Notes: generated by a model not told the origin, from the sequence alone. A stretch of DNA of 64,000 bases from Minisyncoccota bacterium (GCA_041658985.1 JBAZZC010000003.1:10540-74539), one strand, 5' to 3'. Counted from the stretch's first letter, positions 72-52,963 are shown. Made by a program: numbers and translations.

Positions 72-548
72 CTAGCCCCTATTTATTGCGAAATGGGTTA
101 GACCAATGGCAATGGCGTCAAATTCATCGTCACTTTTTGTTTTTGAGGTTATCACAATTAGTTTTCTGACCATATCTATAATTTGTCTTTTTTCACTTCG
201 GCCGTAACCAGTGATAGCAATTTTGACTTCGTTTGGTGTGTATTCAAAAACTTTTAAACCAAGAGAACTTCCTGTGTAGAGAATTACTCCACGGGCCTCT
301 GCCACAAGCATGGCTGTTTTCTGGTTTCCACTAAAAAACAATTTTTCTGTGGCCAGTGCAGTTGGTTTATGTTTTTTTATGACTTCTTTAATTCTATTTC
401 CAATCATAGCCAGTCTCTCGTTGTGTGGGAGTTTACTAGAAGTTTTGAAACATTCAGAAAAAACCAAAATTTCTTTTTGCTTAGCTTCTTTTTCTAGTAT
501 AGCTATTCCAAGTCTTTCGTATCCAGGGTCAATGGAGATAATAATCAT
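72..548 (-). CDS. ruvC: Crossover junction endodeoxyribonuclease RuvC
   Basis: 158 aa with an N-terminal MIIISIDPGYERLGIAI motif and conserved acidic residues typical of RuvC resolvase. Confidence 0.8.
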   Translation of the reverse strand: MIIISIDPGYERLGIAILEKEAKQKEILVFSECFKTSSKLPHNERLAMIGNRIKEVIKKHKPTALATEKLFFSGNQKTAMLVAEARGVILYTGSSLGLKVFEYTPNEVKIAITGYGRSEKRQIIDMVRKLIVITSKTKSDDEFDAIAIGLTHFAINRG

Positions 549-550
549 GA

Positions 551-593
551 TAATTTCTAATTAACCTAATTATTCTAATTTCTAAATAATAAC
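551..593. repeat. AT-rich inverted-repeat arm (left) flanking the four-helix-bundle gene cassette
   Basis: TAATTTCTAATTAACCTAATTATTCTAATTTCTAAATAA here; its reverse complement recurs at 961-1010, and related copies lie at 14488-14583 and 48603-48712. Confidence 0.6.
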
Positions 594-610
594 CAATAAT
601 TAATTAACAA

Positions 611-958
611 TTATTTTACTTTTTTAAATATACTATTAAAAATCAGATTTAATTCTTTTGCCTCAATCCACAACTTAATAGCTTTTTCTCTGCAATCTGG
701 AACGGCAACAGCCACCATTCGTAAGAAATGTTTCGTTTCCCTAGATTCTTTTTTACAGATTCCAATTTTATGTTTAAAGTCTTTACCACTTTCAGCATCA
801 TCCGCTTCACAGTAATTAGCTCCAACACTTGTGCCACATTTTACTAACTGATTTATTATCGGTTTAGTTATTTCATTTTTTATCAAACCAGAACAAAAGA
901 TAATAATATTTTCTCCAAATTTAGCAGTTCTTTCTTCAAGGTCGAATTTGTTATTCAT
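611..958 (-). CDS. four-helix-bundle protein (TIGR02436-like, 23S rRNA intervening-sequence protein family)
   Basis: 115 aa helical protein whose sequence resembles the four-helix-bundle family. It is bracketed by inverted repeats. Confidence 0.6.
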   Translation of the reverse strand: MNNKFDLEERTAKFGENIIIFCSGLIKNEITKPIINQLVKCGTSVGANYCEADDAESGKDFKHKIGICKKESRETKHFLRMVAVAVPDCREKAIKLWIEAKELNLIFNSIFKKVK

Positions 959-960
959 TG

Positions 961-1010
961 GGGTTTATTTAGAAATTAGGTCAATTAGAATAATTAGGTT
1001 AATTACCCCC
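961..1010. repeat. AT-rich inverted-repeat arm (right) of the four-helix-bundle cassette
   Basis: The reverse complement shares 23 identical bp (TAATTAACCTAATTATTCTAATT) plus TCTAAATAA with 551-593. Confidence 0.6.
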
Positions 1011-1554: not shown

Positions 1555-2607
1555 TTATAGTAAAGTGCCTCTATTTGGTGGTGTAAGTCCCAAGTGCTCA
1601 TAACCAGATACTGCTACCGTTCGTCCTCGCGGTGTTCTTTCAAGGAAGCCGAGTTGTATTAAATATGGCTCGTTGAATTCCTCAATTGTTGCTTGCTCTT
1701 CCGACATGGCGGCGGCCAAAGTATTGAGCCCAACTGGCCCACCGGCAAATTTATTTATTATGGTGTGTAAAATATCTCTGTCGGCGGGAGAGAGCCCAAC
1801 TTCATCAATACCGAGAAGTTTCAAAGTTTCGTCAACAGATTTTTTTGTTAGTTTTGTCTTGTGGACTTGGGCAAAGTCTCGACAGCGTTTCAAAAAGTAA
1901 TTGGCTGTTCTTGGGGTGTATCTACTTCTTTTGGCAATTTCAATCCCAGCTTCTTTTTCCAAGTCAATACCTAAAATTTTTGCCGACCTTACTAAGATTT
2001 TTTGAATCTCTTCATTTGTGTAGAATTCTAGTTTAAATATTCCTCCGGAGAAGCGTGAGCGGAGAGGGGAGGAAATCATGGCAATTCTTGTTGTTGCGCC
2101 GATTAAAGTAAATGGTGGGAGTTCTAGCTGTATAGTACGAGCTGAAGGCCCTTTGCCAATAATAATGTCTAGTGACCCTGATTCCATAGCGGGGTAAAGG
2201 ATTTCCTCAATAGTTTTGTTTAGTCGGTGTATTTCATCTATAAACAAAATATCTCCTGGCGAGAGGTTGGTCAGTATTGAAGCAAGGTCCCCGATTTTTT
2301 CTATAGCTGGACCGGAAGTCACTTTCATCTGAGCGTTTATTTCTTTTGAAACAAGGTGGGCGAGGGTTGTCTTGCCTAATCCCGGTGGACCGTAAAAAAG
2401 AATGTGTTCTGGTGGGTGGTTTCTCTCTTTAGCTGCGGTAAGTAGGATATGGAGGTTGTTTTTTATGCTTGTTTGACCAACATAATCGTCCCATTTTGAT
2501 GGACGAAGGGTTGTATCAAGAAAAAGATTTTCTTTGTCTCCAATAATATCCAAATTCTCACCTTTTTTGGCCTTGTTTTTTGGTGTTGTTTTCTTGTTGC
2601 CAAGCAT
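1555..2607 (-). CDS. ruvB: Holliday junction branch migration ATPase RuvB
   Basis: Walker A motif GPPGLGKTTLA plus an AAA+ module and the RuvB C-terminal winged helix. The length (350 aa) fits RuvB. Confidence 0.9.
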   Translation of the reverse strand: MLGNKKTTPKNKAKKGENLDIIGDKENLFLDTTLRPSKWDDYVGQTSIKNNLHILLTAAKERNHPPEHILFYGPPGLGKTTLAHLVSKEINAQMKVTSGPAIEKIGDLASILTNLSPGDILFIDEIHRLNKTIEEILYPAMESGSLDIIIGKGPSARTIQLELPPFTLIGATTRIAMISSPLRSRFSGGIFKLEFYTNEEIQKILVRSAKILGIDLEKEAGIEIAKRSRYTPRTANYFLKRCRDFAQVHKTKLTKKSVDETLKLLGIDEVGLSPADRDILHTIINKFAGGPVGLNTLAAAMSEEQATIEEFNEPYLIQLGFLERTPRGRTVAVSGYEHLGLTPPNRGTLL

Positions 2608-2698
2608 ATACCTATATTATATACTATTGTCTACCTCCGCCAGCACCAAAATTGAGTCTTGACACGAAAAGTTTTTTATGCTAGACTGTCCGTGACAT

Positions 2699-2834
2699 AT
2701 CCGCACACCAACTTTAGTATTGTGTCTTATCGTTGCGGGTATGGTAATTATACTATGTAGTGGTGGGGATAAAAACACTGAGAAGTATACTTATATTAGA
2801 CACGGAGCAACGATACTAAAGTTGGTGTGCGGAT
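2699..2834 (+). repeat. R135 inverted-repeat element, copy A
   Basis: Termini are ATCCGCACACCAACTTTAGTAT ... ATACTAAAGTTGGTGTGCGGAT. Inner modules TGTGTCTTA and CGTTGC are permuted between the arms. Confidence 0.8.
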
Positions 2835-3147
2835 GAATTTGAAAAAAAAGATTACATTAAAAGGTTTTGAGGTTTTTTGGTTCCAAAATATAAATCTCTA
2901 AGCAACTAAGCGTTTACGTTTACGAGTCTTTCTACGAGGACATTCTGGGTATTACTTTATGTAATATTCTGGAATTATCCTTTGTGAAAAACTTAGCTTT
3001 TGGTTTGATTATTGAAAGTGTTGCTTAGAGATTTATGTCTTGGAACTATCGTCCCGCCGACTGGCGGCTTTTTTGTTCCCAAAGATTATCTCTATTTACT
3101 AGTATAGATATGAAACAATTTTCTGCAAGAGTTTTTAGTATTAGAGC

Positions 3148-4861: not shown

Positions 4862-4992
4862 AATCAAGAGTTTCTTTTTCATTGTATCTCTCAGAGAGAC
4901 ACGCATAAATTTCTGCTGAAATTTTGCTTGAGTTCGGCTCGACAGCCTCACTAGTCTCTCTTCAAGACACAACTCAACAAAACTCTTGATTT
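4862..4992 (+). promoter_or_regulatory. Conserved promoter/operator module, copy 1: TTGTAT-17-ATAAAT with a TCTCTCAGAGAGA palindrome in the spacer and a distal GTCTCTC
   Basis: About 85% identical to the reverse complement of 60462-60580, which lies upstream of recA. The -35 is at 4882-4887 and the -10 at 4905-4910. Short flanking inverted repeat AAATCAAGAGTTT / AAACTCTTGATTT. Confidence 0.55.
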
Positions 4993-5069: not shown

Positions 5070-5729
5070 ATGAAAACATTGAGATTGCTCATGGTGTTAG
5101 CGGTCGTCGTTTCGGTGGCGGCCTGCGCCGGCAAGGTGGCTCCGGCCACCATTCCGCTCAGTGAGCGGATCGCCGAACTCAAGGCCCAGGAGGCCGAGAG
5201 GTTGGCGAACGAGACCCCCGAGGACCGGGCCATCAGGGCTCGCGCCGAGGAAATCGAGCGCGAGATGGCGACGAAGAAGGCCCGCGAGGAGGCCAAGAGG
5301 AGTGGCTCGCCGGCCATGCGCAAGGCCATTAAGGAGTTTGAGAAGGCCAAGAAGGCCATCACGAACTCCGGCCTTCAGGGGTGCGACCCGAGTACGGTCG
5401 ACGTCCACCCGGATGTGGCGCCGCGTCGGAACGCTAGTTCAACCGTGAAGGTTCAGGCGTTCAATCAGGGGCAGGTCCCCGTTGATATCTATGAGCCAAA
5501 ACACGGGCTAGTCGTTCGCAACCTGTGCCCCGGAGGGTCACTGACCCTCTTCCGGGCACGTCGGCTCGGGATTGACCCGGACTACATCCAGTTTCGGTAT
5601 GTCGCCAAGGCGATATTGTCGGACGGGCGGATGCTGACGGCTGAGTCACAGCAATACCAACTATCCAAGTACGACTGGTCGTCCGGTCGAGGGCGACAGG
5701 AGTACGACTGGTACATCGAGGTTCGATGA
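5070..5729 (+). CDS. Hypothetical secreted lipoprotein, GC-rich (about 62% GC), probably horizontally acquired
   Basis: Signal peptide with a lipobox (LAVVVSVAACAG). A strong promoter and Shine-Dalgarno precede it. The high GC makes the overlapping antisense ORFs artefacts. Confidence 0.6.
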   Translation: MKTLRLLMVLAVVVSVAACAGKVAPATIPLSERIAELKAQEAERLANETPEDRAIRARAEEIEREMATKKAREEAKRSGSPAMRKAIKEFEKAKKAITNSGLQGCDPSTVDVHPDVAPRRNASSTVKVQAFNQGQVPVDIYEPKHGLVVRNLCPGGSLTLFRARRLGIDPDYIQFRYVAKAILSDGRMLTAESQQYQLSKYDWSSGRGRQEYDWYIEVR

Positions 5730-5925: not shown

Positions 5926-5932
5926 AATATAA

Positions 5933-6066
5933 ATCCGCACACTAATTTTGCCATCGTTCTATTTTTTAAAACAAAACCAATACCATTTTTATTTTCTTAC
6001 TCAACTTCACACAAGTTAATATATTTGATTTAGAACTAAAAATAATGGCAAATTTAGTGTGCGGAT
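5933..6066 (+). repeat. R135 inverted-repeat element, copy B
   Basis: ATCCGCACACTAATTTTGCCAT ... ATGGCAAATTTAGTGTGCGGAT. It ends 22 nt before the tsaE start codon. Confidence 0.8.
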
Positions 6067-6088
6067 AAAATTATGCTAATATGTCTTT

Positions 6089-6523: not shown

Positions 6524-6531
6524 TGGTATAA
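6522..6531 (+). promoter_or_regulatory. Extended -10 element (TGGTATAAT) placing a transcription start at the first nucleotides of R135 copy C
   Basis: TG at 6524-6525 and TATAAT at 6527-6532, about 7 nt upstream of the element start at 6535. Confidence 0.35.
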
Positions 6532-6534
6532 TTC

Positions 6535-6669
6535 ATCCGCACACTAAATTTGGCATTATCTCATAGTTGCTATACATGTGGTTATGTCAAATTTAATAAT
6601 CATGTTTAAATATAAGTATGCATCTAGAATTTGAGATAATAGCAACGATGCCAAAATTAGTGTGCGGAT
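6535..6669 (+). repeat. R135 inverted-repeat element, copy C
   Basis: ATCCGCACACTAAATTTGGCAT ... ATGCCAAAATTAGTGTGCGGAT. It ends 3 nt before the polA ATG. Confidence 0.8.
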
Positions 6670-6672
6670 AAA

Positions 6673-9024
6673 ATGGCCAAACCTAAAAGCAAAAAAACAC
6701 TGGTACTTCTTGATGTGCATGCTATTTTGCATCGTGCCTATCACGCCCTTCCGGAGTTTGAATCAAGTAAAGGTGAGCCGACGGGAGCTCTTTATGGGCT
6801 TTGCACCATGCTTATCAAGCTGGTAAAAGATTTTAATCCAGACTACATTATTGCTTGTTATGATTTGCCAGAGCCGACCTTACGACACGAAGCATATGGA
6901 GAATATAAGGCTGGTCGTAAAAAAGCTGACGATAATTTAGTAAAGCAGTTGGAGAGGTCAAAGGACGTTTTCAAGGCCATGAATGTGCCGATGTATTCGT
7001 CCCCAGGATTTGAGGCAGACGATATGCTTGGCACCATTGTTGAGAGCTTAAAAAATAACAAAGATATAGATATTGTTATTGCTTCTGGAGATATGGACAC
7101 CATGCAACTTATAAATGGTGATAGGGTGCGGGTTTACACTTTAAAGAAGGGAATAAAGGACACCATTATTTATAACGAGAAAGCAGTGATGGAAAGATGG
7201 GGCTTTGCTCCAAAACTTTTAACCGACTACAAGGGGTTGAGGGGCGACCCGTCGGATAACATAATTGGTATTGTGGGTATTGGGGAAAAAACAGCAGAAG
7301 AATTAATTCAAAAATTTGGTTCGATAGAAAATATATATAAAGAAATTAAAAATCCAAAATCTAAAATTCACAAAGAAGTTAGACCGAGGGTTTTAGAACT
7401 ACTTAAAACGGGAGAGGAAGAAGCTTTGTTTAGCAAAATGCTGGCTACCATTCGAATTGATGCACCGATTTATTTTACAATGCCCACAAAAATTTGGCGG
7501 GATGATATAGATATGAAAAAAGTTCAAGATTTGTTTTCACAATTTGAATTTAGAATGCTGGGGCAGAAATTTGCCGAGAGTCTATCTCTGGACATGCCAG
7601 AAAGAGCAGAAATAATGGCTAATCCTAAGGACGTATTTGAAGTTGGACTATTGCTCTGGGTAGTGGATTCAAACAAAACAAATTCTACGTTAGATGATAT
7701 TTTGTCGTATACCAGAAGCGACAATCTATCTGATGCTCGGAAGGTTTTGGAGAAGACAATAAAAGACCAAGACCTATCTTTTGTTGTAGAAAAAATAGAA
7801 AAGCCACTTATGCCAATTGTTGAGACAATGAAAGAGGTTGGTATAAAAATAGACACCGAAAGACTAAAAATTTTATCAAAGAAATACCACACAGAATTAT
7901 CGTCACTTGAGAAAAAAATATGGAAAATTGTCGGTGAGGAATTTAATATTAATTCACCAAAACAATTAGGTGAGATGCTTTTTGTTAAAATGGGGCTTAA
8001 AGTAAAAAACCAAAAGAAAACAGCTAGTGGTGGATTTTCTACAAAGGAATCAGAGTTGGAAAAATTAAAGGAAGAGTATCCGATTGCTGGATTAATCCTG
8101 GAGTATCGTAAATTAGCAAAACTTCTTGGCACTTATATAGATACCATGCCAACCCAAGTAGATAAAGGTGATAGGTTACATGCTAATTTTTTACAAGCTG
8201 GGACAACCACTGGCAGAATGGCAAGTCAGGACCCGAATTTGCAAAACATTCCAAATAAAACAGAGCTTGGTCGAGAAATTCGTAAATCGTTTATTGCCGA
8301 AAAAGGCTGGAAACTTATTTCGTTTGATTATTCCCAGATAGAGCTTCGTATTGCTGCTTTCTTGTCGGGGGATAAGAAACTAATTGAGATTTTTAAAACA
8401 GGCCAGGATGTCCACACTGCTGTGGCTTGCGAAGTTTTCGGAGTCAAACCAGAAGAGGTAACAAAGGAGATGAGAATAAAAGCAAAAACCATAAATTTTG
8501 GTGTGATGTATGGAATGGGTGTAACTGCTCTACAGAAAAATATTAAAACAAACAGAGAGGAGGCCCAGGAATTTTTGAATGGATATTTTAATAAATTTTC
8601 TGGACTAGCTGAATATCTAGAAAAAGTAAAAAGGGAAACGGCCCAAAAGGGCTTTACCTCGACATTTTTTGGTCGCAGGAGATATTTTCCTGAAATCAAT
8701 TCCAGACTACCTTTTATGAAGGCCCAAGCAGAAAGAATGGCAGTCAATGCGCCGATACAGGGGACAGAGGCAGACATAATCAAAATGGCTATGATAGAAA
8801 TTGATAGATTTATAAAAAGTAAGAATTTAGAAAAGAACGTCCAATTGCTTTTGCAGGTTCATGATGAGTTGGTATACGAAGCAAAAGAAAATATAGTTAA
8901 TTCAATAACTCCAGAAATAAAAGTAATAATGGAAAATATAATTGACCCAAAAAAAATACACGGAATAGTTTGTGTAGCGAATAGCTCCTTTGGAGACAAT
9001 TGGGCAGAAATGATATCAGTATAA
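6673..9024 (+). CDS. polA: DNA polymerase I (5'-3' exonuclease plus polymerase domains; 3'-5' exonuclease region reduced)
   Basis: N-terminal FEN-like domain, a helix-hairpin-helix, and polymerase motifs A (DYSQIELR), B (RIKAKTINFGVMYG) and C (QVHDELV). 783 aa. Confidence 0.9.
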   Translation: MAKPKSKKTLVLLDVHAILHRAYHALPEFESSKGEPTGALYGLCTMLIKLVKDFNPDYIIACYDLPEPTLRHEAYGEYKAGRKKADDNLVKQLERSKDVFKAMNVPMYSSPGFEADDMLGTIVESLKNNKDIDIVIASGDMDTMQLINGDRVRVYTLKKGIKDTIIYNEKAVMERWGFAPKLLTDYKGLRGDPSDNIIGIVGIGEKTAEELIQKFGSIENIYKEIKNPKSKIHKEVRPRVLELLKTGEEEALFSKMLATIRIDAPIYFTMPTKIWRDDIDMKKVQDLFSQFEFRMLGQKFAESLSLDMPERAEIMANPKDVFEVGLLLWVVDSNKTNSTLDDILSYTRSDNLSDARKVLEKTIKDQDLSFVVEKIEKPLMPIVETMKEVGIKIDTERLKILSKKYHTELSSLEKKIWKIVGEEFNINSPKQLGEMLFVKMGLKVKNQKKTASGGFSTKESELEKLKEEYPIAGLILEYRKLAKLLGTYIDTMPTQVDKGDRLHANFLQAGTTTGRMASQDPNLQNIPNKTELGREIRKSFIAEKGWKLISFDYSQIELRIAAFLSGDKKLIEIFKTGQDVHTAVACEVFGVKPEEVTKEMRIKAKTINFGVMYGMGVTALQKNIKTNREEAQEFLNGYFNKFSGLAEYLEKVKRETAQKGFTSTFFGRRRYFPEINSRLPFMKAQAERMAVNAPIQGTEADIIKMAMIEIDRFIKSKNLEKNVQLLLQVHDELVYEAKENIVNSITPEIKVIMENIIDPKKIHGIVCVANSSFGDNWAEMISV

Positions 9025-9103: not shown

Positions 9104-9817
9104 ATGATTTATTTTTTACACGGCACAGATACACACAAAAGTCGGAAGAAAATGCATGAAGTTTTGCAGAGTCTTTCTGCTAAAAGACCAAATTCTGAAA
9201 TTTTTAAAATAACAACGGAAAATTGGAGCGAGGGGCAATTCAATGAGCTTTTAGAATCACAGGGATTATTTGATAAAAAATATATTGTTGTTTTAGATTC
9301 TCTTTTCTCAAACAAGGAAGCTAAGGAAATTGTTGCGGGTGGATTAAAAAAAATGCAAGAAGCAGAACATTGGTTTTTGATTTTAGATGGCAAGATTGAT
9401 TCAGCAACAGTAAAAAAAGTAGAAAAAGCCTCTTATAAATCACAGGAATTTAGTGAGAAGGAAGTAAAAAAAGAATCACCAATCATTTTTTCTATTACAG
9501 ACAAACTTTTAAACAGAGATAAAAAGAAATTATGGATTTCATTTACTGATTTGTTAAGTCAGGGAATACCAGTAGAGGAAATTCACGGAGTGCTTTTTTG
9601 GGCAATGAAAAATATGATTATAGCCGGAAAGGTTTCAAGTCAAAAAGAATCTGGGTTAGCACCTTTCTCATACAGTAAAGCGCTTTCTGGAAGTAGAAAC
9701 TATAAATCAGAGGAATTACAAAAAATGTCATCCGATTTGATTGAGATGACACACAGGGTTCGTCAGGGGGAGGGGGATTTAGAAGTGATGATGGAGAAGT
9801 GGATTTTGGAGAGATAA
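9104..9817 (+). CDS. Hypothetical protein, possibly a DNA polymerase III delta subunit (HolA-like)
   Basis: N-terminal MIYFLHGTD resembles the start of the delta subunit. It lies directly downstream of polA. The similarity is weak. Confidence 0.4.
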   Translation: MIYFLHGTDTHKSRKKMHEVLQSLSAKRPNSEIFKITTENWSEGQFNELLESQGLFDKKYIVVLDSLFSNKEAKEIVAGGLKKMQEAEHWFLILDGKIDSATVKKVEKASYKSQEFSEKEVKKESPIIFSITDKLLNRDKKKLWISFTDLLSQGIPVEEIHGVLFWAMKNMIIAGKVSSQKESGLAPFSYSKALSGSRNYKSEELQKMSSDLIEMTHRVRQGEGDLEVMMEKWILER

Positions 9818-10034: not shown

Positions 10035-10313
10035 CCGAACCTCTCCTTGGTGAGTTGTGACCTCTTTGATTAATGCTACTCAGAAGTTTAGAAAAAGCAA
10101 ATATAAGAATTAAACAGGGTGTGAATTGGACTTTCTTGAGATTTTTGTTATATTTTGTAGGTTAATAGAGTGTTTACGGTCAGGGATAATTTTCTTGCCG
10201 TCGCAAGAAAATTTCCACGACCCTGCCTCGCCTGTTTTGCATGGTAGCAAAACATGGCTGTGGCTCGCAAAAGCTTTTAATAAGTCAAAGCAGTTTGATT
10301 TATTAAAGCATTT

Positions 10314-10386
10314 GCGCCCGTAGCTCAGTCGGTAGAGCAGCTCCCTTTTAAGGAGATGGTCGCAGGTTCGATTCCTGCCGGGCGCA
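10314..10386 (+). tRNA. tRNA-Lys (anticodon TTT)
   Basis: Acceptor stem GCGCCCG/CGGGCGC, D-arm TAGCTCAGTCGGTAGAGC, anticodon loop CTTTTAA, T-arm GGTTCGATTCC. Confidence 0.85.
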
Positions 10387-10660
10387 CAATTAAAAAATCT
10401 CTGTGGTGGGGATTTTTTAATTGTGCGCCCGGAGCAAGAGTGTGGGGCACTCTTGCGTCAGGAATCGAACAGATTCACGGTTTACGCTCGCAGAAGCGAG
10501 TGTTGTGAATCTGCGTTTTAAATTCTGATGAGTGACGACGAATCAGAATTTAAAAAGATTCCGTCCAGAAAAGGTGTACTGACCATGTAATGGTCGATAT
10601 TCCTGCCGGGCGCACAAACCAAAAAATCTCCACTGCTGGAGATTTTTTGCACTAGTGTGC
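10387..10660. repeat. tRNA-Lys 3'-end duplications and hairpin repeats (scars of site-specific integration)
   Basis: A direct copy of the tRNA 3' end (CGATATTCCTGCCGGGCGCACAA) lies at 10595-10617. An inverted, interrupted copy lies near 10425-10475. Hairpins AAAAAATCTCC..GGAGATTTTTT are shared with repeats at 18566-18703 and 23259-23396. Confidence 0.55.
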
Positions 10661-10775
10661 TGACCGGAATACAATATAATTATAATAACTTTTAGTTGAG
10701 AGTTGAGTTTAGGTTTTATAAAAAGCAGGCACACAGAGATTCCCTGTGTGCCTGTTCAAGTGGTACTCTCCGACC

Positions 10776-12185
10776 TTACCCCAAGCGCTTGAGAAAAGCT
10801 GTTACTTCGGGCGGTAGCGGGAGCGATGGCGAAAAGACCGCTTCGTATTTGTAGTGACGGTAGGCGCCGAACACGCTCTGGAGTTCTTCTGGCGTGTGCG
10901 TCTCGTCTTGAACGACCTTCTTAATCGCCCCCAGAAGATGAGGGAAATCGACAGCAAGAGAGAAAAGCTTGTGAAGCACATCCACTTGCAGTCGATGTGG
11001 CAGACGAATTGGAGACCGGTAGTGATATGTCGAGAAGACACTCTCAACACTGTCAATCAAACCCTCCCGCAAACTCTGCTCCCCGAGCCGAGTCCCTGGA
11101 TAGGGGGTGAAAATTGAAACCCAGGCAAAATCAGGTTTGAGTTGAGTGTTGAACTCAACCGTCTCGTAGTCGTTGTCCAAGGTTGTGCCGGGAAAACCCA
11201 AAATATTCTGGGTAAAAACGGCAATACCCTGGGCGCCAAGCAACTTCCGCGCCAGAATCATCTGGGCTTTGCTAATCCGCCTGCCCAAAAGTTCTGTGCG
11301 CACCTTGTCATTACCAGCTTCTACACCCATGAAAATCTTCGCGCAACCTCCTTGCTTTAAGAGTGTAGCAACTTCTTCGTTTACCAAATCGGCCCGCAGG
11401 GAACAGATAAACGGCATGCCGATCTCAGCACGATACCTCGACACAAAGGTGCGAAGTCGAGGTCGATCAAGTACGAAAATGTCGTCGTGAAAATTGATGG
11501 TTTTCAGATTATGGTGCATCTTCAGTTCCACCAGCTCCGCCATCAAATTTTCCGCCGAGCGAGTTCTGACAAACTTCCCCTTGCTCATATAAAGAGTGCG
11601 CAAGGGTCTATTGGCGCAGTACGAACAGTCGTAGGGGCAACCTCGACTTGAAAAGACGCAATATTCCCCGTCAGCGGGAACGCGCTGAAAGAGATCTCGG
11701 TCTGGGAAAGGCAACGCATCGAGGTTCGCCACTAGTGGGCGCACTTCATTGCGATACACGACACCCTTCTCCTTGATCCAGAAATTGCGTATTTCTCTGA
11801 TCGATGAGTGGGTTTTGATCGCTTGGGCCAGCTCCACAACCGCCTCATCTCCCTCTCCGATTCCAATGACGTCCACCGCCTCATGTGTCAGAATCTCTGG
11901 CACAAGAGTCGGATGAAAACCACCAAAAACAGAGAGAAATGGGTGCCGCCGCTTGAGCCGACTGCACAATTCCAAACAATGCGTCTGTTCGCCCGTGATG
12001 ACGCTAAACATCACCACATCCGGAACGAATTCTTCGAATATTCGTTCGGTATCCTCTTGGCTGGACAGAGAGCCGCGGACGACAAACCCATGTTGCTTGA
12101 GTGCTGACGAGAGATACATCGCCCCAAGCGGTTCATCGACCAAAGCAGGACTAACGATCAAAATCCGCGGGTAATCTTTGTCCAT
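10776..12185 (-). CDS. B12-binding domain radical SAM protein (GC-rich, about 55% GC)
   Basis: CxxxCxxC motif (CPYDCSYCAN), an N-terminal cobalamin-binding-like domain, a GGAGG Shine-Dalgarno, and foreign base composition. Confidence 0.75.
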   Translation of the reverse strand: MDKDYPRILIVSPALVDEPLGAMYLSSALKQHGFVVRGSLSSQEDTERIFEEFVPDVVMFSVITGEQTHCLELCSRLKRRHPFLSVFGGFHPTLVPEILTHEAVDVIGIGEGDEAVVELAQAIKTHSSIREIRNFWIKEKGVVYRNEVRPLVANLDALPFPDRDLFQRVPADGEYCVFSSRGCPYDCSYCANRPLRTLYMSKGKFVRTRSAENLMAELVELKMHHNLKTINFHDDIFVLDRPRLRTFVSRYRAEIGMPFICSLRADLVNEEVATLLKQGGCAKIFMGVEAGNDKVRTELLGRRISKAQMILARKLLGAQGIAVFTQNILGFPGTTLDNDYETVEFNTQLKPDFAWVSIFTPYPGTRLGEQSLREGLIDSVESVFSTYHYRSPIRLPHRLQVDVLHKLFSLAVDFPHLLGAIKKVVQDETHTPEELQSVFGAYRHYKYEAVFSPSLPLPPEVTAFLKRLG

Positions 12186-12196
12186 TTCTCAAACCT

Positions 12197-12270
12197 CCAG
12201 GTTTGATACTACAATGTTGATAGTCTTTTCTAGGAACTTCTAAGTTTGATAATACAATGTTTATAGGTCT
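12197..12270. repeat. Imperfect tandem direct repeat (~31-bp unit GTTTGATAcTACAATGTTgATAGTCT) upstream of the radical SAM gene
   Basis: Two units at 12197-12226 and 12239-12270. Confidence 0.5.
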
Positions 12271-15972: not shown

Positions 15973-16011
15973 ATTTCTCTATTTTACAACAAAATTACCC
16001 AAAATGCTTTA

Positions 16012-16146
16012 CCCGCACACCAATTTTGGCATTGTCTCTATATTGCCACATCAATAATTATATAAAGAACGAGTCATTTTCATCTAAGTAAGGTTGTTTA
16101 ATTATCTTGAGAGACTGGGCAATGATGCCAAATTTGGTGTTCGGGT
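16012..16146 (+). repeat. R135 inverted-repeat element, copy D
   Basis: CCCGCACACCAATTTTGGCAT ... ATGCCAAATTTGGTGTTCGGGT. It ends exactly at the mutM stop codon. Confidence 0.8.
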
Positions 16147-17093: not shown

Positions 17094-17681
17094 CTACGAT
17101 AGTAGTTTCATTGCCTTTTTTATTTTTTCCCCGGTACTTTTTTCACCCCCTGCTTTTTTCAGTGCTTCTCGCGCCTCACGTTCACCAAACCCCAGAGATT
17201 TTAGGGCCTCGAGAGCGTCAATGTCGTCGGAAAGGGAAGACCCATCACTTCCAACGTGTTCTAGCTTGTCTCGGAGTTCTACAACTATTTTCTCGGCATT
17301 TTTCTTGCCAACCCCGGAGACTTTTGTAAGATGTGCCGTGTCACCTGTAACTATTGCCTGGCGTAAGTTTTGGAGTGAAGCGATGTTTAAGATACCAAGG
17401 GCCGACTTTGGTCCAATGCCAGAAACGGTTAAGAGAAGCTCAAAAAAGTTAAGTTCCTCCCTCGTTCCAAATCCATATAAATCTAGGGCATTTTCTCTAA
17501 CAGCCAAATGTGTCCAAAATTCTGTCGTAGCTTGCGCCTTATATGATTTATTGCCTTCGCTTCGCTCCGGCGAGGACAGGGAGGCTGTATTTGTGTAGAT
17601 TTTATAACCAACACCAGAAACATCCAGTGTTATTGATTTTAAGTCTTGGTGTATTATCTTTCCTTTTAAATATCCAATCAT
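17094..17681 (-). CDS. ruvA: Holliday junction DNA helicase RuvA, carrying a 52-bp in-frame repeat insertion
   Basis: MIGYLKGKI start and HhH motifs (VSGIGPKSA). The loop sequence SPERSEGNKSYKAQATT is encoded by a segment shared with rlmI. Confidence 0.85.
   Translation of the reverse strand: MIGYLKGKIIHQDLKSITLDVSGVGYKIYTNTASLSSPERSEGNKSYKAQATTEFWTHLAVRENALDLYGFGTREELNFFELLLTVSGIGPKSALGILNIASLQNLRQAIVTGDTAHLTKVSGVGKKNAEKIVVELRDKLEHVGSDGSSLSDDIDALEALKSLGFGEREAREALKKAGGEKSTGEKIKKAMKLLS
17522..17573 (-). repeat. 52-bp GC-rich in-frame repeat (copy in ruvA)
   Basis: 50 of 52 bp identical to 34096-34147. Encodes SPERSEGNKSYKAQATT. Confidence 0.8.
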
Positions 17682-18137: not shown

Positions 18138-18558
18138 GTTAAACTTTGTTTATATGACCGGAAAGAGTAAAAGCGACAGAATTTTTAGTATTGATATATG
18201 GAGATATTTAGTAAACTTTTGGACACTGGTTATTTATATTATTGTTGTAGCTGACTTTTTTATGAGGAATAGTCTGGTGGAATTTCTTGGGCCAATCTGT
18301 GCTATCTACATTGCTCTTCTGGCTGTCTATACTACCCAAAAAGAGTTTGAACGATGGCATGATGAAAATATTGGCAAACATCCCGGGGAAGTATATGTAA
18401 TAGTTTGGACTGCCTTAATTGTTGTATTAATTGTTCTAGAAATTATTTACCAAGAGAGTTATGTATTACCAAGTGAAGCTTTTTCAACATATGTTGTAGT
18501 GATGGGTATATTAGCAATCTCAAGAAGGTCAAAGGCAAATTATTGTCGTATAAAATAA
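18136..18558 (+). CDS. Hypothetical membrane protein
   Basis: Three or four transmembrane helices; no recognisable family. Confidence 0.4.
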   Translation: MLNFVYMTGKSKSDRIFSIDIWRYLVNFWTLVIYIIVVADFFMRNSLVEFLGPICAIYIALLAVYTTQKEFERWHDENIGKHPGEVYVIVWTALIVVLIVLEIIYQESYVLPSEAFSTYVVVMGILAISRRSKANYCRIK

Positions 18559-18565
18559 AAACTTT

Positions 18566-18703
18566 GTGGTCAGGAATATTTTGCTCGTCGTCACTCGCAA
18601 AATTTCATGACCCTGACTCAGCTGTTTTTTCTGTTGAAAAAACATGCTTCCGTCCAGCACATAACAATAAAAATCTCCAGCAGTGGAGATTTTTATTGTT
18701 ATG
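18566..18703. repeat. tRNA-flanking hairpin repeat X1
   Basis: About 85% identical to 23259-23396. Contains a 22-bp-stem hairpin GCACATAACAATAAAAATCTCC..GGAGATTTTTATTGTTATGTGC abutting the tRNA 3' end. Confidence 0.7.
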
Positions 18704-18775
18704 TGCTCACGGCAGGAATCGAACCTGCATTTCTCCCTTCGCAGGGGAGTGTCTTATCCATTCAACGACGCGAGC
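18704..18775 (-). tRNA. tRNA-Arg (anticodon GCG as read; the exact anticodon needs checking)
   Basis: Acceptor GCTCGCG/CGTGAGC, anticodon stem CTCCC/GGGAG with loop CTGCGAA, T-arm GCAGGTTCGATTCCTGC. Confidence 0.65.
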
Positions 18776-18802
18776 TATAAAAAAAAGAGTAACACAAAGA
18801 TA

Positions 18803-19893: not shown

Positions 19894-20277
19894 ATGAAAT
19901 ATCTTGGTATTGATTATGGTTCAAAACGAATTGGCCTGGCGGTTTCTGATGAGGCTGGTAGTTTTGCTTTTCCCTTGAAAGTTTTAAGTAATTCAGAAAA
20001 TCTAATTAAAGAATTGGTTGAAATATGTAGGGAAAACAATGTGGAAGGGGTTGTGGTGGGGGAGTCAAAAGATTATCTTCAAAAAGACAATGAGATTATG
20101 GATGAAATTTTGCCATTTGTTGAGGATTTAAAAAATGTACTTAACCTGCCAATATATATGCACCCAGAATTTTTGACTTCCCAGGAGGCCGAGAGATTGC
20201 AGGGTAAAAACGATATGCATGATGCTAGTGCAGCGGCTCTTATTTTAAAAAGTTATTTGGATTCATCCGCACACTAA
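19894..20277 (+). CDS. ruvX: Putative pre-16S rRNA nuclease / Holliday junction resolvase-like protein YqgF (RuvX)
   Basis: MKYLGIDYGSKRIGLAVSD N-terminus typical of YqgF. Confidence 0.8.
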   Translation: MKYLGIDYGSKRIGLAVSDEAGSFAFPLKVLSNSENLIKELVEICRENNVEGVVVGESKDYLQKDNEIMDEILPFVEDLKNVLNLPIYMHPEFLTSQEAERLQGKNDMHDASAAALILKSYLDSSAH

Positions 20278-20395
20278 GTTTAGCATCGTTGCCATTTTTT
20301 GTGGTTTGGCTAACGTTCAATTTTTTGTAATATCCCGTGTATTATAGTTGTATGTGTTGTGGCAACAAAAATAATGCTAAACTTAGTGTGCGGAT
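20265..20395 (+). repeat. R135 inverted-repeat element, copy E
   Basis: ATCCGCACACTAAGTTTAGCAT ... ATGCTAAACTTAGTGTGCGGAT. The left arm overlaps the ruvX stop codon. Confidence 0.8.
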
Positions 20396-20419
20396 AAAAA
20401 AATAATAAAAATTAATTTT

Positions 20420-22916: not shown

Positions 22917-23252
22917 ATGAAAAATTTACTCCAAAAAATTAAATTCTTTTATACTAAGATAATAAAGAAAGAAGAAATATATAAGAGACGAGCAATAAGA
23001 CCTGCGCAAGACTGGTCTATTATTCTGATTATAAATATTGTTATTTTTTGTATATTACTTATTTTTGCTTCCTATTTTTATATACAAATTAGAAGAGATA
23101 AGTTGTTTGCTATAACCGAAGCGAACATAATAAATGAGACGAAAATAAATTCAGTGCTTCTAAAGAAAACAATAAACGATATTAATCTTCGTGAGGAATT
23201 AACCAACAACCTTAAAAATAGTGGAATAAGGTTTCCTGACCCATCTATGTAA
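22917..23252 (+). CDS. Small transmembrane hypothetical protein (possibly PilP-like)
   Basis: One transmembrane helix, translationally coupled to the preceding gene. Confidence 0.35.
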   Translation: MKNLLQKIKFFYTKIIKKEEIYKRRAIRPAQDWSIILIINIVIFCILLIFASYFYIQIRRDKLFAITEANIINETKINSVLLKKTINDINLREELTNNLKNSGIRFPDPSM

Positions 23253-23258
23253 ACTTAT

Positions 23259-23396
23259 GTGGTCAGGAATATTTTTGTTTCCGTCAAAACAAAAATTTCA
23301 CGACCCTGACTCGGCTGTTTTTTCTACTGAAAAAACATGCCTTCGTCTAGCACATAACAACAAAAATCTCCAGCAGTGGAGATTTTTGTTGTTATG
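23259..23396. repeat. tRNA-flanking hairpin repeat X2
   Basis: About 85% identical to 18566-18703. Same hairpin abutting the 3' end of tRNA-Arg(TCT). Confidence 0.7.
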
Positions 23397-23468
23397 TGCT
23401 CTCGGTTGGAATCGAACCAACATCAAAGCCTTAGAAGAGCTCTACTCTATCCATTGAGCTACGAGAGC
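23397..23468 (-). tRNA. tRNA-Arg (anticodon TCT)
   Basis: Acceptor GCTCTCG/CGAGAGC, anticodon loop CTTCTAA, T-arm GTTGGTTCGATTCCAAC. Confidence 0.75.
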
Positions 23469-23550
23469 GATAACGATAGGTTATCATAGAAAATCATTTA
23501 ATTCCACAAAATATGTGTTATTATTTTCTCTATAACACTCAAATAAATCT

Positions 23551-33726: not shown

Positions 33727-34647
33727 ATGATAGATAATATTTTAATCACTGAAAAATCAGTTGACTACGAACTGCTCGATAGTGGCGAGGGGGAAAAATT
33801 AGAGAGATATGGAAAGGTTGTTCTTTCTCGTCCAGACCCACAAGCCATCTGGTCAAAGTCATTACCTGAATCAGAATGGAAAAAAGCTGATGCCGTCTTC
33901 AGTCGTGTCGGTACAACAGGGAAATGGGAAGTAGTAGCTAGTAGTAAGCATCTAGCATCTAAAGGGGGGTTTTGGAACATTCAATTAGATAACTTAACTT
34001 TTCAGTTACAACTTTTACCTTCAAAACATATTGGAGTTTTTTCAGAACAGAGTGAACAGTGGAAATGGCTAGAGGAAAAAATTGTTTCCCGTATTTCGCC
34101 GGAGCGAAGCGAAGGCAACAAAACATATAAGGCGCAAGCTACGACAGTTCTGAATTTATTTGGTTACACGGGTGGTGCCAGTTTGGCTTGCGCCAGGGCT
34201 GGAGCAGAAGTTTGTCATGTAGATAGTTCAGAATTTGCTGTTGATTTGGCTCATACTAATATGAAACTTTCTGGCCTTTCGGATAAAAAAATAAGATTTA
34301 TTGTTGATGATGTCAGAAAATTTGTGGAAAGAGAAATAAAAAGAAAGAAAAAATACGACGTAATTATTTTAGACCCACCTATTTATGGTAAGGGCACGAA
34401 AAAAGAAGTGTGGAAGGTTGAAGATGACTTGTTGCCTTTTTTGCTTCACCTAAAAAATATTATTTCAGATAATCCATTAGCTATCGTTCTAAATGGTTAT
34501 GCTTCAAATTATTCTAGCATCACCTACGTTCAATTACTTGAAACTTTAAAATTAAAAGGCAAAATTACTCACGGTGAATTGGCTATAAAGGAATCATCAG
34601 CTGGTAGGCTCTTGCCTTGCGGCATATTTGCTCGTTGGGAACAGTAA
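33727..34647 (+). CDS. Class I SAM-dependent rRNA methyltransferase (RlmI/YccW-like), carrying a 52-bp in-frame repeat insertion
   Basis: PUA-like N-terminus, SAM-binding motif LNLFGYTGGASLA, and ILDPP. The ISPERSEGNKTYKAQATT segment is encoded by the repeat shared with ruvA. Confidence 0.75.
   Translation: MIDNILITEKSVDYELLDSGEGEKLERYGKVVLSRPDPQAIWSKSLPESEWKKADAVFSRVGTTGKWEVVASSKHLASKGGFWNIQLDNLTFQLQLLPSKHIGVFSEQSEQWKWLEEKIVSRISPERSEGNKTYKAQATTVLNLFGYTGGASLACARAGAEVCHVDSSEFAVDLAHTNMKLSGLSDKKIRFIVDDVRKFVEREIKRKKKYDVIILDPPIYGKGTKKEVWKVEDDLLPFLLHLKNIISDNPLAIVLNGYASNYSSITYVQLLETLKLKGKITHGELAIKESSAGRLLPCGIFARWEQ
34096..34147 (+). repeat. 52-bp GC-rich in-frame repeat (copy in the rlmI-like gene)
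   Basis: TCGCCGGAGCGAAGCGAAGGCAACAAAACATATAAGGCGCAAGCTACGACAG; 50 of 52 bp identical to the reverse complement of 17522-17573. Confidence 0.8.
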
Positions 34648-36032: not shown

Positions 36033-36067
36033 ATTGTGTTATAATGACAGTATTATTAAATTAAATT

Positions 36068-36203
36068 CATCCGCACACTAACATTAGTATTGTGTCTTAC
36101 GTTGCTCTACTGGGTATTAAACAGAGTAATGAAGGATAAAATGATGAAGTAAACAAATCAAGATTAGACACAATTGCAACGATACCAATGTTAGTGTGCG
36201 GAT
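36068..36203 (+). repeat. R135 inverted-repeat element, copy F
   Basis: ATCCGCACACTAACATTAGTAT ... ATACCAATGTTAGTGTGCGGAT. The interior is related to copy A. It ends 8 nt before the next ATG. Confidence 0.8.
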
Positions 36204-36211
36204 AAAATTTT

Positions 36212-52793: not shown

Positions 52794-52963
52794 AAGTTTT
52801 TACAAAACAAGATTTAGGTGGTACTATTGGCCTATGGATCCCGTTAGAAATCCCTTGGTTGATTTGTAAAAAATGGATTTTAACGAGAAACCTAATTATT
52901 AAGATATATTAACTAATTAAATGCGGAAAGGCTTTAGTAAAAGGCTTTCCTATTTCTAACGGG

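What the first reader, a model, noticed from the sequence alone, without database searches (positions are those of the whole stretch)
17522..17573. 52-bp GC-rich element inserted in-frame in two unrelated housekeeping genes (ruvA and rlmI-like): an RPE-like peptide-coding repeat
The segment TCGCCGGAGCGAAGCGAAGGCAA(T/C)AAA(T/A)CATATAAGGCGCAAGCTACGACAG occurs at 17522-17573 on the minus strand and at 34096-34147 on the plus strand, with 50 of 52 bp identical. In both genes it is read in the same frame and encodes SPERSEGNK(S/T)YKAQATT. In ruvA that is the loop between domains I and II. In rlmI it lies just before the SAM-binding GYTGG motif. The segment is ~54% GC against a ~35% background. This looks like a Rickettsia-palindromic-element-style repeat that survives by inserting in-frame into surface loops.
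Basis: seen in the sequence. Interest (0 to 1): 0.8.

Follow-up and report, generated by a model that had tools for sequence, protein, structure and literature searches.

The report
Tiny in-frame repeat in CPR repair genes
A 52-base GC-rich DNA repeat has been copied, always in the same reading frame, into exposed loops of several unrelated housekeeping genes of a Paceibacterota (CPR) bacterium and its relatives. It behaves like the "selfish DNA inside genes" known from Rickettsia, but it is smaller, not palindromic, rare, and conserved at the DNA level rather than the protein level.

Summary
The same 52 nt (50/52 identical, none expected by chance) lies in ruvA (17522-17573, minus strand) and in a 2IGT-type SAM methyltransferase (34096-34147, plus strand). 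Both copies are read as SPERSEGNK(S/T)YKAQATT.

It is a DNA-level dispersed repeat. Near-identical copies (47-48/52) occur in ruvC and a holB-like gene of related metagenome contigs, and a decayed copy in ruvB. All are sense and in the same frame.

The window's own ruvC and ruvB lack it. The closest sequenced genome lacks it in both ruvA and the methyltransferase.

In both window proteins it maps to a low-confidence surface loop. In RuvA that loop is inside domain I, not between domains I and II.

- Codons for the same amino acid are identical in 42/48 cases inside the element against 253/589 in the rest of the genes (p = 1e-9).
- Differences between copies are mostly non-synonymous. So the nucleotides are conserved, not the peptide.
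- There are no terminal inverted repeats, no target duplication and no overall palindrome, only two mini-hairpins.
- Copy number is low.

Verdict: RPE-like in behaviour, not an RPE. I rate it a new variant of a known kind; the mechanism is unresolved.

The parts
17522..17573 (-). Copy 1 of the 52-nt element, inside ruvA, read as SPERSEGNKSYKAQATT
   Evidence: nhmmer E 6e-18.
34096..34147 (+). Copy 2 of the 52-nt element, inside the SAM methyltransferase, read as SPERSEGNKTYKAQATT
   Evidence: nhmmer E 5e-17.
17094..17681 (-). Host gene ruvA (195 aa). The element is residues 37-53, in a loop of domain I.
   Evidence: PDB RuvA alignments show a gap at this place. In the AF2 model residues 36-49 have pLDDT <50 and lie between strands 24-30 and 52-61. 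The native loop is 10 aa in 79 of 120 orthologue clusters.
33727..34647 (+). Host gene: class I SAM-dependent methyltransferase (PF10672, 2IGT-like, 306 aa). The element is residues 124-140, just before VLNLFGYTGG.
   Evidence: There is a 13-residue gap against 2IGT. In the AF2 model residues 126-134 have pLDDT <50 and lie between helix 106-123 and strand 140-144.
34098..34116 (+). Proposed mini-hairpin 1 (element positions 3-21): GCC-G-GA-GC[GAA]GC-GA-A-GGC. In copy 1 it is 17553-17571 (-).
   Evidence: Read from the sequence. The Watson-Crick positions are nearly invariant in 8 copies, and one-sided changes mostly give G-U, but there is no compensatory change. The same 20-mer forms hairpin loops with varied stems in unrelated GC-rich metagenome contigs.
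34131..34140 (+). Proposed mini-hairpin 2 (element positions 36-45): GGC[GNNA]GCT. In copy 1 it is 17529-17538 (-).
   Evidence: The stem is invariant in 8 copies. Only the two middle loop bases vary (CAA/CCA/CGA/ACA codon), and those changes alter the amino acid.
464..488 (-). Empty site in the window's own ruvC: native loop EAKQK (488-474) followed by GAAATTTTGG (473-464). In relative L049 the element sits exactly here.
2500..2607 (-). N-terminal tail of the window's ruvB, without the element. The relatives L049 and P0244 carry a copy in this tail.

Best explanation
The 52-nt segment is a low-copy, GC-rich dispersed DNA repeat of Zambryskibacteria-like Paceibacterota. Its core is about 51 nt (17 codons), possibly up to 60 nt with a poorly conserved 5' part.

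Shown:
- It has been copied at the nucleotide level into at least five non-homologous conserved genes: ruvA, ruvB, ruvC, a holB-like pol III delta' gene and a 2IGT-type SAM methyltransferase.
- It is always sense and always in the one frame that gives a hydrophilic, unstructured peptide.
- It sits in a beta-hairpin turn, a linker before strand beta-1, a domain boundary or an N-terminal tail.
- Presence and absence differ between close relatives.
- Its nucleotides, synonymous sites included, are far better conserved than the surrounding genes, while the encoded residues change freely.

Inferred:
- The peptide is a tolerated passenger. Selection only filters out insertions with stops, the other frames, or buried sites.
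- What persists is the DNA or RNA sequence with its two stable mini-hairpins (GCGAAGC type and a GNNA tetraloop).
- Spread between genes most likely occurs by a hairpin-dependent, non-TIR route. One option is microhomology-anchored templated patch insertion (ectopic short-patch conversion). This would explain why native loop codons are replaced and why two junctions share GAA(A)TTTTGG. The other option is single-strand (Y1/HUH-type) transposition.
- The insert-bearing alleles then move between lineages by short-patch homologous recombination.
For: Identity and chance.

Further host genes, same frame and orientation:
- holB-like, 48/52 identical (L045).
- ruvC, 47/52 identical (L049, same as L014).
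- ruvB, decayed in L049 and better preserved in P0244.

Insert-free orthologues:
- RuvA P0003/L061 is 94% identical in protein with nearly identical flanking DNA, yet carries a 30-nt native loop where the window has 60 nt.
- The same assembly, GCA_964621565.1, also lacks the element in the methyltransferase.
- The window's own ruvC and ruvB lack it, while a relative with 89% identical RuvB has it.

Surface loops.

Patchy distribution: about 23 of 120 RuvA clusters carry it, scattered on the tree, with at least 18 Fitch changes.

Nucleotide-level conservation:
- Same-amino-acid codons are identical in 42/48 cases inside the element against 253/589 in the rest of the genes (Fisher p = 1.2e-9).
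- Flanks 4-40 codons away are at gene-average identity of 0.61-0.82, against 0.80-0.89 in the element.
- Among the four copies in different host genes (window ruvA, window methyltransferase, L045, L049), about 7 differences change the amino acid and 2 do not (read).

Architecture and junctions:
- No TIR, no TSD, no global fold.
- GAAA?TTTT?GG occurs 9 times in 128 kb. It abuts the element in ruvA and marks the empty ruvC site.
Against: - Only five host genes are known, and the whole source genome could not be scanned, so copy number, intergenic copies and any master copy are unknown.
- No transposase or reverse transcriptase is in the window.
- The hairpins have no compensatory covariation, and nearest-neighbour folding gives no signal.
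- Junction behaviour is inconsistent. In RuvA the right junction is fixed and the left varies; in the methyltransferase it is the reverse.
- The target motif rests on two exact junctions and was defined after seeing them.
- High synonymous conservation fits a functional nucleic-acid element equally well.
- Four of the five host genes act in recombination or replication, which a purely neutral spread does not predict. Local hopping within one repair-gene-rich neighbourhood of about 35 kb could explain it.
Confidence: 0.6

Rival explanations
1. It is a functional cis-acting nucleic-acid signal embedded in coding sequence, kept by purifying selection on the nucleotides. Candidates are an mRNA structural or regulatory element, a protein-binding site, or an uptake- or recombination-type signal. 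On this reading it is placed preferentially in genome-maintenance genes.
For: - Synonymous sites in the element are conserved far above the host genes, and the flanks are not.
- Variation falls on the loop bases of the GNNA hairpin, while the stems are invariant. One-sided stem changes mostly give G-U.
- It is sense orientation in 5 of 5 hosts.
- Hosts are ruvA, ruvB, ruvC and holB-like plus one RNA methyltransferase.
- DNA uptake sequences are reported to be biased towards genome-maintenance genes (titles and abstracts listed).
Against: - Membership is not a stable set. The window genome has it in ruvA but not ruvB or ruvC, a close relative has it in ruvB and ruvC, and the closest genome lacks it in ruvA and the methyltransferase.
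- polA, fpg, recA, recO, ssb, ruvX and ftsK in the window lack it.
- Density is far below that of uptake sequences.
- There is no Rfam match, no covariation and no thermodynamic signal.
Confidence: 0.2
2. It is a selected peptide module: a short linear motif such as an interaction, modification or degradation tag. On this reading it was recruited into RuvA, RuvB, RuvC, HolB and the methyltransferase because the peptide itself is useful.
For: - The same frame is used in all five hosts, although 3-4 of the 6 frames are open.
- The peptide is hydrophilic and exposed.
- Three hosts belong to one machine, RuvABC.
Against: - Differences between copies mostly change the amino acid, while synonymous sites are nearly frozen. 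That is the opposite of protein-level selection.
- The peptide varies widely among RuvA orthologues, for example PKLGLGDKSYKAQAST and PERGVGNNNSEAPNTT.
- It is absent from the nearest relatives and from most orthologues.
Confidence: 0.07
3. It is a chance or artefactual similarity, from an assembly chimera, a contaminating oligonucleotide, or independently evolved loops.
For: None found. The only point is that the left 20-mer recurs in many unrelated genomes as a hairpin motif.
Against: - 0 of 100 shuffles give a match.
- Identical insert-bearing proteins are recorded in two NCBI MAGs and in JGI, ENA and Logan assemblies.
- Orthologous insert-bearing ruvA occurs on contigs up to 505 kb.
- Full-length copies occur in other genes of other samples.
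Confidence: 0.01

Closest known systems
Rickettsia palindromic elements (RPE-1 to RPE-10). Described as interspersed 100-150 bp repeats abundant in intergenic and protein-coding regions (PMC1779305) that frequently make in-frame fusions (PMC10969869).
   Same: - It is a nucleotide-level repeat found inside unrelated housekeeping genes.
- It is always translated in one frame.
- It is located where the fold tolerates an extra loop.
- Presence and absence are lineage-specific.
- No transposase is encoded in the element.
   Different: - It is 52-60 nt rather than 100-150.
- It has no overall dyad symmetry.
- Copy number is low, and no intergenic copy has been seen.
- It replaces native loop codons.
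- The host is a free-living or episymbiotic CPR bacterium.
- The same loop is occupied in many lineages, with synonymous sites conserved.
In-frame MITEs of bacteria (intragenic ERIC, Correia/NEMIS, BOX, cyanobacterial MITEs; review PMC10969869)
   Same: It is a small non-autonomous repeat that can create translational fusions.
   Different: It has no terminal inverted repeats and no target-site duplication, and it is at the very bottom of the MITE size range. A separate repeat in this same window does look like a classical MITE: the ~145-nt long hairpins with ATCCGCACAC ends, all intergenic.
REP/REPIN elements mobilised by RAYTs, and IS200/IS605-derived hairpin mini-elements (from my own knowledge of these families)
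   Same: - It carries short GC-rich hairpins and has no TIR or TSD.
- Insertion is orientation-specific.
- There is a possible short conserved sequence at one junction.
- A Y1_Tnp gene lies next to the methyltransferase orthologue in one related contig.
   Different: - REPs are abundant and extragenic.
- No Y1 transposase is seen in the 74 kb available.
- The hairpins here are only 2-5 bp Watson-Crick, and their role is untested.
DNA uptake sequences (DUS/USS) of Neisseriaceae and Pasteurellaceae (papers listed)
   Same: It is a nucleotide-level motif tolerated inside genes in preferred frames, with an apparent excess in genome-maintenance genes.
   Different: DUS/USS have 9-12-nt cores present about once per kb. 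This element is 52 nt and rare.
Palindromic repeats with coding potential in Methanocaldococcus jannaschii (Suyama, Lathe and Bork 2005, recalled from memory, not read here) and PARCELs (PMC2996958)
   Same: Repeat DNA is translated as part of proteins.
   Different: Those repeats are palindromic and, for PARCELs, tandemly arrayed in surface proteins. This element is single-copy per gene and sits in core enzymes.

Membership tests
Rickettsia palindromic elements (RPE) | Inserted in frame in unrelated protein-coding genes, one reading frame used | tested here: met
   Five host genes, all sense and all in the SPERSEGN frame.
Rickettsia palindromic elements (RPE) | Insertion sites compatible with the protein fold (surface loops) | tested here: met
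   AF2 pLDDT is <50 in both inserts, between regular secondary-structure elements. Solved homologues show gaps at these places.
Rickettsia palindromic elements (RPE) | Length 100-150 bp | tested here: not met
   The conserved unit is 52 nt, at most about 60 nt. Identity stops at both ends.
Rickettsia palindromic elements (RPE) | Palindromic (dyad symmetry over the element) | tested here: not met
   RNA and DNA folds of either strand give z between +0.1 and +0.5. Only two mini-hairpins are present.
Rickettsia palindromic elements (RPE) | Abundant, in intergenic as well as coding regions | tested here: inconclusive
   There are 2 copies in 74 kb of the source genome, and none beyond the known hosts in about 205 kb of fetched related loci. 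No intergenic copy was seen. The whole genome was not available.
Rickettsia palindromic elements (RPE) | Sequence similarity to an RPE family; Rickettsiales host | not tested
   No RPE models were available. The host is Candidatus Paceibacterota.
MITE | Terminal inverted repeats | tested here: not met
   The ends TCGCCGG... and ...CGACAG are not complementary.
MITE | Target-site duplication | tested here: not met
   The flanks of all copies show no direct duplication. Native codons are removed instead.
REP/RAYT or IS200/IS605-type hairpin element | Hairpin(s) recognised as single strand, conserved by covariation | tested here: inconclusive
   The two mini-hairpins are 90% paired over 8 copies, but with 0 compensatory changes, and the shuffle control is not exceeded.
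REP/RAYT or IS200/IS605-type hairpin element | Cognate Y1 (HUH) transposase in the genome | not testable with these tools
   None is present among the window ORFs. One Y1_Tnp gene is seen in a related contig.
REP/RAYT or IS200/IS605-type hairpin element | Insertion next to a fixed short target sequence, strand-specific | tested here: inconclusive
   GAA(A)TTTTGG sits exactly at the 3' junction in ruvA and at the empty ruvC site. This does not hold in ruvB, holB or most methyltransferase lineages.
DNA uptake sequence | Hundreds to thousands of copies, about 1 per kb | tested here: not met
   2 copies in 64 kb.
Diversity-generating retroelement variable region | Template repeat plus reverse transcriptase nearby; adenine-specific differences | tested here: not met
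   No RT is in the window. Differences between copies are not restricted to adenines. The DGR beside ruvA in L077 targets another gene.

The most novel reading that the evidence does not exclude
The element may be a site- and orientation-specific 'homing' mini-element, or a functional RNA/DNA signal. On this reading its nucleotide sequence is under purifying selection, and it repeatedly colonises the same loops of the recombination and replication machinery (RuvA, RuvB, RuvC, HolB) across Paceibacterota. It would use a hairpin-guided mechanism not described for any known repeat family. More broadly, CPR genomes may carry several such families that share hot-spot loops. The methyltransferase site alone carries at least six other kinds of short insert, including a perfect 23-nt palindrome. 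KLKV(E/K)S-type inserts occur at both the RuvA and the methyltransferase sites.
Probability: 0.22. Interest if true: 0.85.

Novelty: new variant of a known kind. Interest (0 to 1): 0.6.

Why it matters
In-frame "selfish DNA inside genes" has been a curiosity largely confined to Rickettsia for 25 years, and its mechanism is still unknown.

- A much smaller, non-palindromic counterpart in the Candidate Phyla Radiation would show that the phenomenon is broader.
- It offers a compact system for working out how such elements move: 51 nt, two mini-hairpins, and natural filled and empty sites in near-identical genes.
- It bears on how new loops arise in ancient proteins, and on whether coding sequence can carry a second, nucleotide-level layer of selection.
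- Practically, these inserts inflate apparent protein divergence and can mislead annotation and phylogeny of CPR core genes.

Tried and rejected
- **Peptide search.** Searching the 5.8-billion-protein collection with the 17-aa peptide failed. The query was too short, and a tandem construct gave 51 word candidates but none at E<=10.
- **Profile search.** A 17-column profile against 1.84 billion representatives gave only 4 hits. Three are repetitive giant proteins and one is useful (P0244, RuvB).
- **Species-genome scan.** The two-part pattern gave one hit, in an Auribacterota MAG (L001), intergenic and inside a long palindrome. I first took this as a relative. Given how common GAGCGAAGCGAAGG is in GC-rich genomes, the co-occurring 10-mer is within chance, so I dropped it.
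- **Metagenome scan.** 56 of 59 loci are unrelated GC-rich contigs that share only the left hairpin motif. The source contig itself was not returned, so the collection is incomplete and counts are lower bounds.
- **Viral contigs.** No match to the right half.
- **Rfam.** Nothing at the element. Hits at L001 and at the intergenic hairpins are generic miRNA-precursor noise.
- **DGR hypothesis.** Rejected.
- **Recent homologous transfer of a large ruvA segment.** Rejected as the cause of the conservation, because the flanks are not elevated. A short patch of under 100 nt is not excluded: the window shares KIYTNTASLSSPERSEGNKSYKAQAT with the more distant P0006 and P0009, but not with the nearer P0002 and P0003.
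- **Literature.** Searches for the sequence string and for CPR in-frame repeats found nothing relevant.

Full report
**1.

- The 52-mer occurs at 17522-17573 on the minus strand and 34096-34147 on the plus strand. The copies are 50/52 identical. No match appeared in 100 dinucleotide-preserving shuffles, and the repeat finder lists it as inverted pair I2.
- Copy 1 lies in a 195-aa ORF (17094-17681, minus strand). Copy 2 lies in a 306-aa ORF (33727-34647, plus strand). Both are read in the same frame as SPERSEGNK(S/T)YKAQATT.
- GC is 52-54% against 36.8% for the window.
- The ORFs are RuvA and a class I SAM methyltransferase of Pfam PF10672. The organism is a Candidatus Paceibacterota (Zambryskibacteria-like) MAG.
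- Both proteins, inserts included, are recorded under two NCBI accessions each and in JGI, ENA and Logan assemblies. An assembly artefact is therefore excluded.

**2. Where the insert sits in the proteins**

- *RuvA.* The segment is residues 37-53. Alignments to solved RuvA structures open a gap there. An AlphaFold2 model gives pLDDT below 50 for residues 36-49, between strands 24-30 and 52-61 of the N-terminal OB-fold domain.
- *Methyltransferase.* The best solved relative is 2IGT (E 5e-54), with a 13-residue gap at the insert. RlmI/YccW matches only the catalytic domain. The model has pLDDT below 50 for residues 126-134, between helix 106-123 and the first Rossmann strand 140-144 that leads into GYTGG.

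**3. It is an insertion, and it is polymorphic among close relatives**

*RuvA*
- Among the 120 best RuvA clusters, 79 have a 10-residue loop of the form [SIVL]L[ED]xxKxKx[LT].
- About 23 clusters carry the element or a diverged version, for example SLERSEGNKSDKAQATT, PKRSAGDKSYKASTTT and PERGVGNNNSEAPNTT. They are scattered over a neighbour-joining tree built without the loop, with at least 18 Fitch changes.
- The closest RuvA, P0003 (94% identical), has the short loop ILENTKQAEV. At the DNA level its flanks are almost identical to the window, but 30 native nucleotides stand where the window has 60.

*Methyltransferase*
- The methyltransferase from the same assembly as P0003 (GCA_964621565.1) also lacks the element. 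It has SRKLKVESTKIQ instead.
- Most methyltransferase orthologues are 285-295 aa and lack the element.
- About nine lineages carry it: P0125, P0138, P0156, P0164, P0166, P0173, P0186, P0187 and the window.

**4. More host genes**

- An exact scan of JGI metagenome contigs for CCGRAGCGAAGCGAAGGCAA returned 59 loci. Three of them carry the whole element.
  - L045 (48/52 identical) has it in a DNA_pol3_delta2 (HolB-like) protein just after the AAA+ module: ...VIQSDPPERSEGNKTYKAPATKVLDL...
  - L049, the same sequence as L014 (47/52 identical), has it in RuvC at the turn of the second beta-hairpin...EKTESWPKRSEGNKTYKARATTETLIF....
- A profile search of all fetched DNA found a decayed copy 1.8 kb away in L049, in the N-terminal tail of RuvB: SRPERSIDKDKAKATAVQATTELE. 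It is better preserved in a relative, P0244: SRPERSEGNKLNKAQATTELE.
- All five hosts carry the element in sense orientation and in the same frame. Three to four of the six frames are open.
- L049's RuvB is 89% identical to the window's. Yet the window's own ruvC (72-548) and ruvB (1555-2607) have no element. The native ruvC loop is EAKQK.
- So closely related genomes carry the element in different genes.

**5. What is conserved is the DNA, not the peptide**

- I compared four orthologous pairs: window ruvA against L065, L070 and L073, and window methyltransferase against L079.
- Codons for the same amino acid are identical in 42 of 48 cases inside the element, against 253 of 589 in the rest of the genes (Fisher p = 1.2e-9).
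- Nucleotide identity is 0.80-0.89 in the element. It is 0.61-0.82 in the flanks 4 to 40 codons away on either side. The three junction codons in ruvA are only 0.44-0.78 identical.
- Many of these conserved codons are GC-rich (CCG, GCG, ACG, CGA, GGC, AGC), which looks atypical for a genome of 37% GC; I did not measure codon usage.
- In contrast, the differences among the four copies in different host genes mostly change the amino acid, about 7 against 2.
- The two window copies are more alike (96%) than orthologous copies in other lineages (80-89%).
- This excludes selection on the peptide as the cause of the similarity.
- Two readings remain: purifying selection on the nucleotide sequence, or repeated recent copying from a conserved source.

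**6. Anatomy**

- There are no terminal inverted repeats and no target-site duplication.
- There is no overall palindrome. Folding either strand as RNA or DNA is no better than shuffles.
- Two mini-hairpins can be drawn.
  - Positions 3-21 read GCC-G-GA-GC[GAA]GC-GA-A-GGC. From my own knowledge, GCGAAGC is a very stable mini-hairpin motif.
  - Positions 36-45 read GGC[GNNA]GCT.
- Over eight copies, 90% of the stem cells pair. The second stem never varies, while its two middle loop bases do (CAA, CCA, CGA, ACA). One-sided changes in stem 1 mostly give G-U.
- There is no compensatory change, and the shuffle control is not exceeded. The structure is plausible but unproven.
- The other 56 metagenome loci are unrelated GC-rich contigs. 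In them G(A/G)AGCGAAGCGAA is the loop of hairpins with many different stems, such as TTGCC...GGCAA. The left third of the element is therefore a generic structural motif, not evidence of common descent.
- For the same reason, the single hit in the species-genome scan (L001, Auribacterota, intergenic) is best regarded as chance.

**7. Junctions**

- The element does not simply add 17 codons.
  - In ruvA, 30 native nucleotides are replaced by 60.
  - In ruvC, 15 are replaced by 60.
  - In the methyltransferase the net gain is 13-17 residues.
- The motif GAAA?TTTT?GG occurs nine times in the 128 kb of both strands. One copy abuts the 3' end of the element in ruvA (starting at 17522). Another marks the exact empty site in the window's ruvC (starting at 473).
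- The two sites encode different residues (EFW and EILV), so the resemblance is at the DNA level. My rough, after-the-fact estimate of chance is about 1e-3.
- The motif does not hold for ruvB or holB. In the methyltransferase, the distance to the downstream conserved sequence varies among lineages.
- In RuvA the right junction is constant and the left varies. In the methyltransferase it is the reverse.

**8. Copy number and neighbourhood**

- No further copy was found in the window, in the 10 kb beyond its start (L068), or in the other related loci. About 205 kb was searched in total, by DNA profile and by peptide profile.
- There is no transposase, integrase or reverse transcriptase in the window. 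A Y1_Tnp gene lies next to the methyltransferase orthologue in one related contig.
- Four of the five host genes lie within one syntenic stretch of about 35 kb: ruvC, ruvB, ruvA and the methyltransferase. This stretch is unusually rich in genome-maintenance genes: ruvC, ruvB, polA, a holA-like gene, fpg, ruvA and ruvX. recO, ssb, recA and ftsK lie further along the window.
- Local copying could therefore explain the apparent preference for recombination genes without invoking function.

**9. The same loops host other short inserts**

- At the methyltransferase site, different lineages carry HDTNIRIKTNDTN-type, SRKLKVES-type, SSAIRRGGG-type, CQPGRL-type, SPR(V/G)TLGE-type and PRSDLG-type inserts.
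- The SPRGTLGE insert in L075 is a perfect 23-nt palindrome, TCCCCTAGGGGTACCCTAGGGGA.
- KLKV(E/K)S-type inserts occur at both the RuvA loop and the methyltransferase loop.
- These loops are therefore recurrent landing sites for several families of short elements.

**10. Interpretation**

*Shown*
- It is a nucleotide-level, low-copy dispersed repeat.
- It is present in frame in five unrelated core genes and sits in exposed loops.
- It is polymorphic among close relatives and is conserved as DNA rather than as peptide.

*Inferred*
- The peptide is a tolerated passenger.
- Frame and orientation reflect either a survival filter or the mechanism itself.
- Spread between genes uses a route without TIRs or TSDs. 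One candidate is microhomology-anchored templated patch insertion. The other is hairpin-guided single-strand transposition.
- Insert-bearing alleles may then move between lineages by short-patch homologous recombination. The window's loop plus the preceding KIYTNTA matches the more distant P0006 and P0009 rather than the nearer P0002 and P0003.

*Main rival*
- The element may be a functional RNA or DNA signal. The synonymous conservation favours this.
- The unstable set of host genes among close relatives, and the absence from most repair genes, argue against it.

**11. Comparison with known systems**

- In behaviour it matches Rickettsia palindromic elements: in-frame, one frame, surface loops, unrelated genes.
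- It fails their defining length and palindromy, it is not abundant, and it has not been seen between genes (PMC1779305, PMC10969869).
- It is not a MITE, because it has no TIR and no TSD.
- It resembles REP or IS200/IS605-type hairpin elements only loosely.
- It is not a DGR variable region and not an uptake sequence, given its density.
- Text searches found no description of such elements in CPR bacteria.
- I rate it a new variant of a known kind.

Noticed in passing
window 2695-2840, 5926-6071, 6528-6674, 16004-16041, 20258-20400, 36063-36209, 52655-52799: A separate intergenic repeat family. These are long hairpins of about 145 nt with ends ATCCGCACAC...GTGTGCGGAT, at six full loci plus one left arm alone (16004-16041) in 64 kb, all between genes. 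The copy at 36055-36215 folds with z = -6.4. The Rfam hits are only generic miRNA-precursor noise. It looks like a classical MITE or a structured intergenic element.
   Followed up: partly
window 557-997: An ORF of the 23S_rRNA_IVP / Avd-like family (611-958, minus strand) lies between ruvC and yebC. It is bracketed by 47-nt inverted repeats (557-603 and 951-997), like an rRNA intervening-sequence cassette sitting outside any rRNA gene.
   Followed up: no
window 4872-4981 and 60468-60577: A conserved segment of about 110 nt (85% identical) lies upstream of recA (59370-60446, minus strand) and upstream of a GC-rich ORF with no Pfam family (5070-5729, plus strand). It has the same orientation relative to each gene and contains a GAGAGAC...GTCTCTC hairpin. 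It may be a shared leader or operator.
   Followed up: partly
window 45050-48604: The isoleucyl-tRNA synthetase (1184 aa) has a histidine-phosphatase (His_Phos_1) domain inserted at residues 544-697. The same architecture is seen in relative L075.
   Followed up: no
window 5070-5729 and 10300-12200: There are two GC-rich islands (47-48% GC against 37%). The second begins at a tRNA gene (10314-10386), whose 3' end is partly repeated at about 10592-10614. It carries a B12-binding radical-SAM gene (10776-12185). It may be an island integrated at the tRNA.
   Followed up: no
window 18558-18780 and 23251-23473: A 223-nt direct repeat (79% identical). Each copy contains a tRNA gene plus a 52-nt perfect-stem hairpin, AGCACATAACAA...TTGTTATGTGCT, which looks like a terminator.
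   Followed up: no
L077 7226-9888: A complete diversity-generating retroelement lies immediately upstream of ruvA in a relative: reverse transcriptase, bAvd, a template repeat at 8704-8833, and a variable repeat at 9207-9336 at the 3' end of a 229-aa gene (87% identical). It is unrelated to the ruvA loop.
   Followed up: yes
L023 274-418, L027 4258-4406, L060 2217-2360, also L019, L036, L044: In marine or estuarine contigs of about 48% GC, a unit of about 60 nt (TGTTGTTACTGACCTTAGGTGGGCTGCGGTCCGCCGAAGCGAAGCGAAGGCAATCCGC) recurs every ~125 nt with variable sequence between copies. This is an array of unknown nature that shares only the hairpin motif.
   Followed up: no
L075 7487-7509: A perfect 23-nt palindrome, TCCCCTAGGGGTACCCTAGGGGA, is translated as SPRGTLGE at the same methyltransferase loop. 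It is one of at least six other insert types at this site across lineages.
   Followed up: partly
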